From assembly GCF_045037415.1 (NCBI RefSeq), contig NZ_CP173438.1: 64,000 nucleotides of DNA; one strand, given 5' to 3'. Numbering within the stretch: position 1 is the stretch's first letter; the number at the start of each line of letters is the position of its first letter. Under the pieces are notes generated by a model, which made no database searches, was not told where the DNA came from, and saw nothing but the letters and a program-made list of their open reading frames with translations. The translations under genes were made by a program, and so were the position numbers. This DNA comes from Escherichia coli (lineage in GTDB: Bacteria; Pseudomonadota; Gammaproteobacteria; Enterobacterales; Enterobacteriaceae). Positions 51,996 through 54,165 of this stretch are shown piece by piece.

Positions 51996-52790
51996 TGTTG
52001 TGGTCAACTAAAACTGGCCTCCGCGTTAGAGTTTTTCCAGTATCGGTTTTCTGATTCGTTTGGTGGTAACCCACCATTATATTCGTGCGGTCTTAGTGCG
52101 CTGTAATATCCAACGATATAGTCCGTTATTGCGTGAGCTGCATCGCTGAAGCTTACATAGCCCGTCGCTGGCACCCATTCGTTCTTCAGACTCCTGAAGA
52201 AGCGCTCCATTGGGCTGTTATCCCAGCAGTTTCCACGCCGACTCATACTCTGCCTGATCCGGTATCGCCACAGTAACTGCCGGAACTGCCTGCTCGTATA
52301 ATGACTGCCTTGATCGCTTGGAACATCACCCCGACGGGCTTACCACGGGTTTCCCATGCCATTTCCAGTGCTTTCATGGTAAGCCTGCTGTCCGGCGAGA
52401 ACGACATGGCCCAGCCCACTGGTTTTCTTGCGAACAGGTCGAGAACAACGGCGAGGTACGCCCAGCGCTTACCCGTCCAGATATAGGTCACATCACCGCA
52501 CCACACCTGATTTGGCTCGGTCACGGCGAACTGCCGTTCAAGGTAGTTAGGGATAGCAACATGTTCATGACCACCACGTTTATACCGGTAAGTCGGCTGC
52601 TGACAGCTGACCAGCCCCAGCTCTTTCATGAGTCTGCCAGCAAGCCAGCGCCCCATCTGGTAGCCTCTCTGGGTTGCCATTGTGGCGATGCTTCTTGCTC
52701 CGGCCGAACCGTGGCTGATGCCATGTAGCTCAAGTACCTGACTGCGTAATACAGCCCGTCTGCCGTCTGGTTTTTCAGGACGGTTTTTCC
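51996..52790 (-). mobile_element. IS911 partial copy (right end plus frameshifted orfB), truncated by the IS600-like insertion
   Basis: Diverged IR TGTTGTGGTCAAC at 51996; orfB homology in two frames (52004-52246, 52243-52790); homology to copy 1 ends at 52790. Confidence 0.8.
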
Positions 52791-52854
52791 TGAGGTAGCC
52801 TGAGTTTAACGGACACTCCTTCCTGAAATAGAATGGCATCAGAAGGAGCTAATA

Positions 52855-53157
52855 ATGAGCAGAAAAACCCAACGTTACTCTAAAAAGTTCAAAGCCGAAG
52901 CTGTCAGAACGGTTCTTGAAAATCAACTTTCGATCAGTGAAGGCGCTTCCCGATTATCTCTTCCTGAAGGCACTTTAGGACAATGGGTTACCGCCGCCAG
53001 AAAAGGGCTCGGTACTCCTGGTTCCCGCACGGTGGCTGAACTGGAATCTGAAATTCTGCAACTGCGTAAGGCGTTAAATGAAGCTCGCCTTGAGCGAGAT
53101 ATATTAAAAAAAGCAACTGTAGATTTTGCACAGGAGTCGCTGAAAAATACGCGTTAA
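52855..53157 (+). CDS. IS3-family (IS600-like) OrfA
   Basis: 100 aa MSRKTQRYSKKFKAEAVRTVLENQLSISEGASRL... with HTH and leucine zipper. Confidence 0.85.
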   Translation: MSRKTQRYSKKFKAEAVRTVLENQLSISEGASRLSLPEGTLGQWVTAARKGLGTPGSRTVAELESEILQLRKALNEARLERDILKKATVDFAQESLKNTR

Positions 53158-53192
53158 TCGAACAATGGCGACAACAATTTCCCATTGAAGCG

Positions 53193-54011
53193 ATGTGTCA
53201 GGTATTTGGTGTATCCAGGAGCGGTTATTACAACTGGGTACAGCATGAACCCTCAGACAGAAAACAAAGTGATGAGCGGCTAAAACTGGAGATTAAGGTG
53301 GCACATATCCGCACTCGCGAAACATATGGAACCCGGCGGCTCCAGACGGAGCTGGCAGAGAATGGCATCATCGTTGGTCGTGACCGACTGGCACGTCTTC
53401 GTAAGGAGCTAAGGCTACGCTGTAAGCAGAAACGCAAGTTCAGAGCGACTACGAACTCGAACCACAATCTGCCAGTTGCGCCAAATCTGCTGAACCAGAC
53501 GTTCGCTCCTACAGCACCAAATCAGGTCTGGGTGGCGGACCTGACGTATGTTGCCACACAGGAGGGATGGTTGTACCTCGCTGGCATCAAAGATGTTTAT
53601 ACGTGCGAAATTGTCGGCTACGCCATGGGAGAGCGCATGACAAAAGAGCTGACAGGTAAAGCCCTGTTTATGGCGCTCAGGAGCCAGCGCCCACCTGCCG
53701 GGCTAATCCACCACTCTGATCGAGGTTCACAGTACTGCGCATACGATTACCGGGTCATACAGGAGCAGTTTGGTCTGAAAACATCAATGTCGCGTAAAGG
53801 TAACTGTTACGACAACGCTCCGATGGAAAGCTTCTGGGGAACGCTGAAAAATGAGAGCCTGAGCCACTATCGTTTTAATAACCGGGATGAAGCCATCTCA
53901 GTAATACGGGAATACATTGAGATTTTCTACAATCGTCAGCGTCGTCACTCTCGTCTGGGGAATATCTCCCCGGCAGCCTTCAGGGAAAAATATCATCAGA
54001 TGGCTGCTTAA
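53193..54011 (+). CDS. IS3-family (IS600-like) OrfB DDE transposase
   Basis: 272 aa with DDE core (...HHSDRGSQYCA...MSRKGNCYDNAPMESFW...). Confidence 0.85.
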   Translation: MCQVFGVSRSGYYNWVQHEPSDRKQSDERLKLEIKVAHIRTRETYGTRRLQTELAENGIIVGRDRLARLRKELRLRCKQKRKFRATTNSNHNLPVAPNLLNQTFAPTAPNQVWVADLTYVATQEGWLYLAGIKDVYTCEIVGYAMGERMTKELTGKALFMALRSQRPPAGLIHHSDRGSQYCAYDYRVIQEQFGLKTSMSRKGNCYDNAPMESFWGTLKNESLSHYRFNNRDEAISVIREYIEIFYNRQRRHSRLGNISPAAFREKYHQMAA

Positions 54012-54165
54012 AAAAAAGAACAAATGGTAGTGTCCGCTATTGCCAGTACACCTCAACATTCCACCATGCATTCCGATTAACGCCGCATAGCCAGTTGAAC
54101 TTTGCTACTTTGTGAGAGGTAGTACCTTCTATCCAGTGCGAATTTAATTAATGGAATAAATGATT

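What the first reader, a model, noticed from the sequence alone, without database searches (positions are those of the whole stretch)
51996..54055. IS600-like element inserted into IS911, removing the IS911 left half
Homology to IS911 copy 1 ends at 52790 and the IS3-family left IR (TGAGGTAGCC...) starts at 52791. In K-12 the equivalent IS911 fragment is recalled as interrupted by IS30 instead, suggesting independent IS-on-IS events at the same hotspot.
Basis: partly seen in the sequence, partly recalled or inferred. Interest (0 to 1): 0.25.

Follow-up and report, generated by a model that had tools for sequence, protein, structure and literature searches.

The report
Nested insertion sequences beside fec operon
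This is an ordinary, widely shared pile-up of mobile elements next to the E. coli iron-citrate uptake genes: an IS600 abutting a truncated IS911-type element. The same junction is present in K-12, and the IS600 carries a 5-base scar best explained by a third element, IS30, that once sat inside it and was later lost.

Summary
A 795-bp right-end fragment of an IS911-family element (51996-52790, minus strand) abuts the exact left terminus of a 1265-bp IS600 (52791-54055). This IS600 is 99.5% identical to Shigella sonnei IS600. There is no target duplication, and no IS911 sequence follows the IS600.

K-12 has the identical IS911|IS600 junction and the same first 327 nt of IS600. Its IS30D lies inside IS600, not in IS911. 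This is one shared insertion, found in about 1,239 of 5,426 complete E. coli genomes, followed by later events.

New details:
- Four of the six differences from canonical IS600 cluster at 53118-53122 (AGCGT to TGTAG). TGTAG is the terminus of IS30, at exactly the point where IS30 sits in K-12, Nissle and MS6198.
- MS6198-type genomes carry the occupied state at this same locus. A 1,223-bp deletion across an ATT microhomology gives the window sequence.
- The scar removes a predicted frameshift hairpin.
- K-12 is a 4.35-kb IS30-associated deletion derivative. Its two 'IS911B' pieces come from two different elements.
- IS30 hits the homologous site in IS600 and IS911 repeatedly, so this site looks like a natural IS30 hot spot.

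All elements are known, so interest is low.

The parts
51996..52790 (-). Right-end fragment (about nt 456-1250, 795 bp) of an IS911-family element (ISEc52-like). Its degenerate right inverted repeat starts at 51996 (TGTTGTGGTCAACTAAAACTGGCC). It contains a frameshifted orfB remnant (ORFs 52004-52246 and 52243-52839).
   Evidence: 98.1% to the full copy at 13518-14767. Identical extent to K-12 IS911B-1. rve/rve_3 Pfam hits. PGAP label 'ISEc52 family, frameshifted, missing N-terminus' in JJ1886.
52791..54055 (+). Complete IS600 (1265 bp), with left end TGAGGTAGCC... and right end ...GTACACCTCA. It is flanked by TCC on the left and ACA on the right, so there is no 3-bp target duplication.
   Evidence: 99.5% identical over its full length to S. 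sonnei IS600, 6 differences. PGAP: 'IS3-like element IS600 family transposase, programmed frameshift'.
52855..53157 (+). IS600 orfA (100 aa, HTH_Tnp_1). It differs from canonical OrfA by E11K and AY to VD at residues 89-90.
53106..53112 (+). A7 run (A AAA AAA G), the -1 programmed frameshift site that joins orfA to orfB.
   Evidence: Sequence. A -1 shift here gives a 385-aa OrfAB, the same length as canonical. PGAP annotates a programmed frameshift.
53118..53122 (+). IS30 scar. TGTAG replaces canonical AGCGT (IS600 nt 328-332). Together with the following ATT (53123-53125) it reproduces the first 8 nt of the IS30 inverted repeat.
   Evidence: 4 of the 6 differences from canonical IS600 fall here. 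IS30 begins at exactly this base in K-12, Nissle and MS6198. The right junction of the occupied alleles reads ...TCTACA|AC|(A/C)GCGT ATTTTGC.
53115..53155 (+). Position of the predicted frameshift-stimulating hairpin of IS600. The scar destroys its 5' arm.
   Evidence: Canonical 46-mer folds at -13.1 kcal/mol, z -2.40. The window 46-mer folds at -5.6 kcal/mol, z +0.62.
53193..54011 (+). IS600 orfB reading frame (HTH_21 + rve DDE core). It ends in an A8 run where the canonical element has A7.
54056..54159 (+). Right flank of IS600, which is the upstream region of the BCCT transporter gene (54160-56163). It is unrelated to IS911.
   Evidence: No IS911 homology. The same IS600|ACATTCC junction occurs with three different left partners: fec-IS911 fragment, lpxM and sat. 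The BCCT module occurs without IS600 in AR_0374 and MB51, with homology starting within 1-2 nt of the IS600 end.
13518..14767 (-). Full-length IS911-family (ISEc52-type) 'copy 1', 1250 bp, with an intact 3-bp target duplication ATT. Used as the reference for the fragment.
50340..51107 (+). fecE, the last gene of the ferric-citrate operon (context). The 51108-51995 stretch, including the yjhV-like region, is shared with K-12.

Best explanation
The region is a layered relic of three known insertion sequences, not an active or novel system.

Step 1 (shown): an IS600 terminus was joined by transposition to nt ~456 of an IS911-family element downstream of fecE. This single event is shared by K-12, B/REL606, ST131 and about a quarter of complete E. 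coli genomes.

Step 2 (inferred, mechanism open): the other IS600 end lies next to an unrelated BCCT-transporter module without a target duplication. The IS911 left part was therefore lost in a second IS600-associated step. The most likely route is homologous recombination between two IS600 copies, because IS600 demonstrably serves as a swap point between modules.

Step 3 (shown as a state, direction inferred): IS30 inserted after IS600 nt 327 with a 2-bp AC duplication, just downstream of the frameshift site. This occupied allele survives at the same locus in MS6198-type genomes.

Step 4 (inferred): in the lineage of the window and of REL606, IS30 was lost by a 1,223-bp illegitimate deletion between ATT at IS30 nt 6-8 and ATT at IS600 nt 333-335. 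This left TGTAG in place of AGCGT and restored both reading frames. It also removed the 5' arm of the predicted frameshift hairpin, so this IS600 copy is probably poorly active.

Step 5 (shown by synteny): K-12 derives from the occupied allele by a 4,353-bp IS30-associated deletion. The deletion runs from the IS30 right end to the homologous IS30 target site in a second, full-length IS911 downstream.
For: - Junction and identity.
- Distribution: the 140-nt junction query is covered at 80% or more in 1,239 of 5,426 genomes.
- K-12 annotation and base-level identity.
- Scar: 4 of 6 differences in 5 nt spell the IS30 terminus at the IS30 insertion point.
- Occupied allele at the same locus: MS6198 reads fecE - IS911 fragment | IS600 1-327 | IS30 | AC | AGCGT... 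- BCCT. Once IS30 and its duplication are removed, the IS600 is canonical except at nt 95.
- REL606 IS600 is identical to the window copy except for the A7/A8 run.
- Direction: the occupied allele keeps AGCGT, which the scar allele lacks, so it cannot derive from the scar allele.
- K-12 versus REL606: L008 1-5046 and 9400-10081 match K-12 at 99.9%, and 4,353 bp are missing between them. The K-12 left IS911 piece is 99.7% identical to the REL606 full IS911 but only 90% to the ISEc52 type.
- IS600 as a swap point.
- Hairpin loss.
- Literature: insertion of IS30 into hot spots is not reversed by transposition, and the IS-free state arises only by very rare illegitimate recombination. IS30 also generates deletions (PMC9333248).
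- The single IS600 of REL606 showed no activity in the LTEE or in mutation-accumulation lines (PMC7881107, PMC5289635).
Against: - No genome among 5,426 shows the reciprocal junction (IS600 right end | IS911 nt 455 downward). None shows an IS600 upstream of BCCT with a matching target duplication. Step 2 therefore remains unobserved.
- The 1,223-bp deletion happens to equal the length of IS30 plus its duplication, so the length of IS600 is preserved. This is a coincidence under the microhomology model and would be natural under a conversion-type mechanism.
- The scar allele occurs in both phylogroup A (REL606) and B2 (ST131). This requires transfer of the locus between lineages or long-standing polymorphism.
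- The role of the hairpin in IS600 frameshifting is predicted, not measured.
- ATCC 8739 has an IS911-type element that continues through nt 456 to nt 336 at this locus, which needs an additional recombination to explain.
Confidence: 0.8

Rival explanations
1. One reading: IS600 (here) and IS30 (K-12) entered the same IS911 copy independently, which marks an insertion hot spot in IS911.
For: K-12 does carry IS30D in this neighbourhood. IS30 does have a preferred site in IS911, at nt 334/335.
Against: K-12 has the identical IS911|IS600 junction and an identical IS600 nt 1-327. IS30D abuts IS600, not the 795-bp IS911 fragment. The junction is shared by 1,239 genomes.
Confidence: 0.02
2. The TGTAG cluster is not a deletion scar. 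It is a conversion tract left by an aborted or reversed IS30 strand transfer at its hot spot (transposase-made branched intermediate, short branch migration, repair), without IS30 ever being stably resident in this lineage.
For: The length is exactly preserved. The target and the IS30 end share G...ATT in register. Sequence conversion during IS30 targeting events is documented for IR-targeting (PMC9333248, citing Olasz et al. 2003).
Against: Conversion has been described for IR targets, not for hot-spot targets. A stably occupied allele exists at the very same locus with near-identical flanks, which makes simple loss the shorter path.
Confidence: 0.08
3. The cluster arose by ordinary point mutation, or by conversion from a divergent IS3-family relative, and its match to the IS30 end is coincidental.
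For: Only 4 substitutions are involved, and the reading frames remain open.
Against: Four of the six changes in 1,265 bp fall within 5 nt, they spell the IS30 terminus, and they lie at the exact base where IS30 is joined in three other loci. By rough estimate the joint chance is below 1e-5. No other IS in the compared loci carries this string.
Confidence: 0.03
4. Rival for step 2 only: the IS911 left part was removed in one step by an IS600-mediated intramolecular event (adjacent deletion from an IS600 dimer or circle junction), rather than by recombination between two separately inserted IS600 copies.
For: Both IS600 ends are joined at their exact terminal bases to unrelated DNA without a duplication. 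No reciprocal junction or 'empty-site plus duplication' partner exists in 5,426 genomes.
Against: The same right junction is paired with at least three left partners, and the sat-side left junction with two right partners. This shows that recombination across IS600 is common.
Confidence: 0.35

Closest known systems
K-12 MG1655 yjhV-insO region (IS911B / IS30D / IS600 fragment / IS911B-1, NC_000913 4507125-4509801)
   Same: The same fecE-yjhV flank, the same 795-bp IS911-family fragment, the same junction base and an identical IS600 nt 1-327.
   Different: K-12 keeps IS30 and lacks IS600 nt 328 to the end, the BCCT gene, the DUF2254 fragment and nt 335-1250 of a second IS911 (4,353 bp relative to REL606). 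The window has a complete, scarred IS600 and no IS30.
IS600 of Shigella sonnei (IS3 family)
   Same: 99.5% identity over the full length, with the same ends, the same orfA/orfB layout and the same A7G frameshift site.
   Different: E11K, the 5-nt IS30-derived replacement at nt 328-332, an A8 instead of an A7 run after orfB, and no target duplication.
IS30 loss by illegitimate recombination (Szabo et al. 1999 Plasmid 42:192, as cited in PMC9333248)
   Same: Loss of a hot-spot-inserted IS30 by a rare non-transpositional deletion at a short homology close to the inverted repeats.
   Different: This is a natural allele fixed in many genomes rather than a plasmid assay product. It leaves 5 IS30 bases and removes 5 host-element bases, so the host IS keeps its length and reading frames.
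IS911A::IS30A in K-12 prophage CP4-6
   Same: IS30 is inserted with an AC duplication a few bases downstream of the A-rich frameshift site of an IS3-family element. This is the position homologous to IS600 nt 327.
   Different: The host element is different (IS911/ISEc52-type) and IS30 is still resident.

Membership tests
IS600 (IS3 family) | At least 95% nucleotide identity over the full length to the reference IS600 (~1264 bp) | tested here: met
   1265 bp versus 1264 bp, 6 differences, 99.5%
IS600 (IS3 family) | Terminal imperfect inverted repeats beginning TG and ending CA | tested here: met
   TGAGGTAGCC... at 52791 and ...GTACACCTCA at 54055, identical to the S. sonnei copy
IS600 (IS3 family) | orfA (HTH) and orfB (DDE/rve) in 0/-1 frames joined at an A-rich slippery site | tested here: met
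   HTH_Tnp_1 E 7.8e-20 and rve E 3.2e-26. A7G at 53106-53113 gives a 385-aa OrfAB.
IS600 (IS3 family) | 3-bp direct target duplication flanking a simple insertion | tested here: not met
   TCC on the left versus ACA on the right. The Nissle copy has AAC/AAC. This argues against a simple insertion, not against the identity of the element.
IS600 (IS3 family) | Structured RNA downstream of the slippery site that stimulates frameshifting | tested here: not met
   The canonical hairpin is predicted at -13.1 kcal/mol (z -2.40). The window sequence gives -5.6 kcal/mol (z +0.62). This is a prediction only.
IS911 family (IS911 / ISEc52) | High nucleotide identity to a full-length reference, ending in the family's right inverted repeat | tested here: met
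   98.1% to the ISEc52-type copy 1 and 96.1% to REL606 IS911 over 791-793 bp. The terminal repeat is degenerate (TGTTGTGG versus TGAAGTGG).
IS911 family (IS911 / ISEc52) | Complete element (about 1250 bp, both ends, intact orfAB) | tested here: not met
   Only nt ~456-1250 are present, and orfB is frameshifted
IS30 remnant (excision scar) | Bases identical to the IS30 terminus, located at a documented IS30 insertion point, with an occupied allele known at the same locus | tested here: met
   TGTAG(ATT) at IS600 nt 328-335. IS30 is joined there in K-12, Nissle, MS6198 and strain 1434.
IS30 remnant (excision scar) | Direct demonstration that IS30 was resident in this lineage and then deleted | not testable with these tools
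   This needs a locus phylogeny or an experimental excision assay

The most novel reading that the evidence does not exclude
The frameshift windows of IS3-family elements (IS600 nt 327, IS911/ISEc52 nt 334-335) are natural IS30 hot spots, so IS30 acts as a recurrent 'parasite of parasites' that knocks out IS3-family transposases. The window's IS600 would then be a naturally 'healed' survivor, whose IS30 scar has removed its frameshift hairpin and left it crippled. The curated K-12 'IS911B/insO' pseudogene would be a chimera of two different elements, joined by an IS30-mediated deletion between two such hot spots.
Probability: 0.6. Interest if true: 0.35.

Novelty: already known. Interest (0 to 1): 0.2.

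Why it matters
It matters little for biology at large. All three elements are long known, and the arrangement is annotated in K-12 and present in more than a thousand sequenced genomes.

There is modest value for curators and for people who study insertion sequences:
- It corrects the idea that the K-12 and ST131 arrangements are independent.
- It suggests that the K-12 insO/IS911B annotation joins pieces of two different elements.
- It documents a natural, widely fixed IS30 loss scar, an event reported as very rare in assays.
- It offers a simple explanation for why the single IS600 of E. coli B never moved in long-term evolution experiments.
- It shows IS600 and IS30 acting as recombination joints that shuffle the fec, sat, lpxM and BCCT modules among genomic islands.

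Tried and rejected
- Reciprocal junction (IS600 right end + TCC + IS911 nt 455 downward): a synthetic 218-nt query found no genome covering 80% or more. An intact 'IS600 inside IS911' is therefore not observed.
- Original IS600 insertion upstream of BCCT: I joined the prophage-side flank of the IS600-free BCCT module (AR_0374) to the IS600 left end. No genome matched. The origin of the right junction stays open.
- Literature search for the published IS30 hot-spot consensus (Olasz 1998; J Bacteriol 1997; PNAS 2003): these papers are not held. I could only compare three K-12 IS30 sites myself. They share TTAAnAAAGG on the IRL side, at 20/42 and 17/42 identities. That is suggestive, not a test.
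- JJ1886 as the source of the window: rejected. JJ1886 carries the fec-to-BCCT segment twice, and the window does not.
- Exact counts of scar, occupied and K-12-type alleles: not obtainable, because the search tool joins pieces. About 750 scar-bearing records is only an estimate (1,328 full-coverage records minus 574 in the canonical identity bands).
- No tRNA gene lies in the window, so it holds no island integration site.

Full report
**What is in the window**

The window matches E. coli ST131-type chromosomes at 100% over 51100-55100. Downstream of fecE (50340-51107) and a yjhV-like stretch lies a 795-bp piece of an IS911-family element on the minus strand (51996-52790). blastn against the whole window finds one other match for this region, 52000-52790 against 13522-14314 at 98.1%. 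That second match belongs to a complete 1250-bp copy at 13518-14767, which is flanked by a 3-bp duplication ATT.

Homology stops at 52790. From 52791 to 54055 runs a full IS600. It aligns end to end with the IS600 of Shigella sonnei 53G with only six differences. It encodes an HTH_Tnp_1 OrfA and an rve-domain OrfB. They also coincide with the curated limits of IS911B-1 and IS600 in K-12.

The three bases flanking IS600 differ (TCC and ACA). The right flank is the upstream region of a BCCT transporter gene and has no IS911 homology. PGAP labels the IS911-type fragment 'ISEc52 family'. It is closer to the ISEc52-type copy (98.1%) than to the IS911 of REL606 (96.1%).

**Comparison with K-12**

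In MG1655 the order is IS911B (334 bp), IS30D, IS600 fragment (327 bp), IS911B-1 (795 bp), yjhV, fecE. The alignment shows that K-12 and the window are identical across the IS911|IS600 junction and through IS600 nt 327, after which IS30 begins in K-12.

For the junction in question, it does. A 140-nt junction query is covered in 1,239 of 5,426 complete E. coli genomes, among them the B strains REL606 and BL21. The IS600 insertion is one old, shared event. IS30 in K-12 is a later layer inside IS600, not an alternative hit in IS911.

**The IS30 scar**

Four of the six differences from canonical IS600 lie at IS nt 328, 330, 331 and 332 (window 53118-53122). Canonical GCAAC-AGCGT-ATTTTGC reads GCAAC-TGTAG-ATTTTGC here. 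TGTAGATT is the first 8 nt of the IS30 inverted repeat, and IS30 starts at exactly this base in K-12 and Nissle.

The right-hand junction of the occupied alleles reads ...GATTGAATCTACA|AC|(A/C)GCGT ATTTTGC. IS30 therefore sits after IS600 nt 327 with its usual 2-bp duplication. I predicted that an occupied allele should exist at the fec locus itself, and built a 3,024-nt synthetic query for it. Many genomes match it in a single piece at 100% coverage.

In MS6198 the order is fecE, IS911 fragment, IS600 1-327, IS30, AC, IS600 328 to the end, BCCT, truncated DUF2254 gene, full IS911. With IS30 and the duplication removed, its IS600 is canonical except at nt 95. Deleting 1,223 bp between ATT at IS30 nt 6-8 and ATT at IS600 nt 333-335 gives the window sequence exactly.

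The direction is fixed in two ways. The occupied allele still has AGCGT, which the scar allele has lost. And TGTAG cannot arise from canonical IS600 without IS30.

The Olasz laboratory reports that hot-spot insertions of IS30 are not reversed by transposition, and that the IS-free state arises only through very rare illegitimate recombination (PMC9333248). The window appears to carry such a product. REL606 has the same scar. From I estimate roughly 750 scar-bearing records, which is an estimate and not a count.

**Consequence of the scar**

Both reading frames stay open. OrfA changes AY to VD, and OrfAB changes S89C and V90R. Canonical IS600 has a predicted hairpin just after the A7G slippery site, at -13.1 kcal/mol with z -2.40. 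The scar replaces its 5' arm, and the fold drops to -5.6 kcal/mol with z +0.62.

In IS3-family elements such structures stimulate the -1 frameshift that produces the transposase. That is established knowledge for the family, not something tested here for IS600. This copy is therefore probably weakly active. Consistent with this, the single IS600 of REL606 gave no events in 50,000 generations of the LTEE or in mutation-accumulation lines (PMC7881107, PMC5289635). That agreement is compatible with the inference but does not prove it.

**How K-12 arose**

REL606 and MS6198 carry a second, full-length IS911 about 4.4 kb further on, beyond the BCCT gene, and it abuts the yjhE side. REL606 positions 1-5046 and 9400-10081 of locus L008 match K-12 at 99.9%. 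The 4,353 bp between them are absent from K-12, where IS30D sits at the joint.

The K-12 334-bp 'left half' is 99.7% identical to that full IS911 and only 90% identical to the ISEc52 type. So the two K-12 'halves' of IS911B come from two different elements. K-12 is an IS30-associated deletion derivative of the MS6198-type allele. The deletion endpoint in IS911 (…ATATTAAAAAGGCTAC|) is the position homologous to the IS30 site in IS600 (…ATATTAAAAAAAGCAAC|).

**An IS30 hot spot**

IS30 is joined at this homologous AC dinucleotide in several independent configurations:
- IS600 with the IS30 left end (IRL) facing it, in K-12, Nissle and MS6198.
- IS600 with the IS30 right end (IRR) facing it, in an O157 island.
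- IS911A in prophage CP4-6, with the duplication intact.
- IS911 nt 334 with the right end facing it, in K-12.
- An IS911-type element at nt 336 with the left end facing it, in ATCC 8739.

The third K-12 IS30 site, in ydbA, shares TTAAnAAAGG on the same side. This fits the documented preference of IS30 for hot-spot sequences (PMC9333248). I could not retrieve the published consensus to test the fit.

**How the IS911 left part was lost**

This remains open. Both IS600 ends are joined at their exact termini to unrelated DNA without a duplication. No genome shows the reciprocal IS600|IS911 junction, and none shows a plausible original insertion upstream of BCCT.

IS600 clearly serves as a recombination joint. 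The IS600|BCCT junction occurs with fec-IS911, lpxM and sat on the other side. The sat-side junction occurs both with its original partner (duplication AAC/AAC in Nissle) and with BCCT. I favour recombination between two IS600 copies, but a one-step IS600-mediated deletion is not excluded.

**Verdict**

The evolutionary inference is wrong. Everything involved is a known element in a known, annotated arrangement, so novelty is 'already known' and interest is low. The IS30 scar, the chimeric nature of K-12 IS911B and the recurrent IS30 site in IS3-family frameshift windows are small but checkable additions.

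Noticed in passing
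L007 (E. coli strain 61, NZ_CP048326) 3683-4929; the same allele in many genomes listed as 'IS3 family transposase | BCCT': An IS600 allele upstream of the same BCCT gene has a 17-nt deletion (TTAAA[AAAAGCAAC.....ATT]TTGC). The deletion removes the slippery site and the IS30 target or scar, and fuses orfA and orfB into one 379-aa ORF (WP_000088357.1). Its left flank is lpxM/virK/capU rather than fec. It could be a second, independent IS30-loss product, and it is a natural constitutive OrfAB fusion.
   Followed up: partly
L002 (K-12 MG1655) 7126-9802 versus L008 (REL606) 5047-9399: The curated K-12 pseudogene insO/IS911B (three joined fragments) appears to be a chimera. Its 334-bp left piece belongs to a full IS911 that in REL606 and MS6198 lies 4.4 kb away from the 795-bp ISEc52-like piece.
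   Followed up: yes
L013 (ATCC 8739) 3932-7002: At the same fec locus, an IS911-type element runs uninterrupted from its right end to nt 336. It is then joined to the IS30 left end, and the IS30 right end is joined to IS600 nt 328 onward. There is no IS911(456)|IS600 junction here, and the IS911 part near the expected junction carries 26 SNPs relative to the window. This looks like a recombinant between two IS30-occupied hot spots.
   Followed up: partly
L012 (E. coli O157 Al Ain) 2246-2620: IS600 nt 1-327 is joined to the opposite (right) end of IS30. The IS30 is itself cut off after about 50 nt by an autotransporter fragment, in the urease/tellurite island next to a traT remnant. This is an independent IS30 hit at the same IS600 base.
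   Followed up: partly
L006 (Nissle 1917 derivative) 1192-4933: Triple nesting next to sat. The IS600 has an intact AAC duplication and contains IS30, which in turn contains a full ISEc52/IS911-type element inserted near its right end.
   Followed up: partly
L004/L005 (JJ1886, NC_022648 4908270-4972269): JJ1886 carries the whole fec-IS911 fragment-IS600-BCCT-...-aldose epimerase segment twice, about 44 kb apart, with identical protein accessions in both copies. The window has only one copy.
   Followed up: no
window 38063-38151 and 58787-58875: An 89-nt direct repeat at 99% identity, 20.7 kb apart, in non-coding DNA on either side of the fec/BCCT block. Its nature was not examined.
   Followed up: no
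L015 (MS6198) IS30 left end: The resident IS30 has TGTAGCTT instead of TGTAGATT at its left terminus (nt 6 A to C). This removes the ATT microhomology that the proposed scar-forming deletion would use.
   Followed up: no
window 54056-57503; L011 (AR_0374) 5001-8448; L010 (MB51): The BCCT transporter plus DUF2254 gene pair is a mobile module. It occurs inside a lambdoid prophage (AR_0374), between IS1 copies next to a tRNA-Pro integrase (MB51) and on plasmids. Homology to the window begins within 1-2 nt of the IS600 end.
   Followed up: partly
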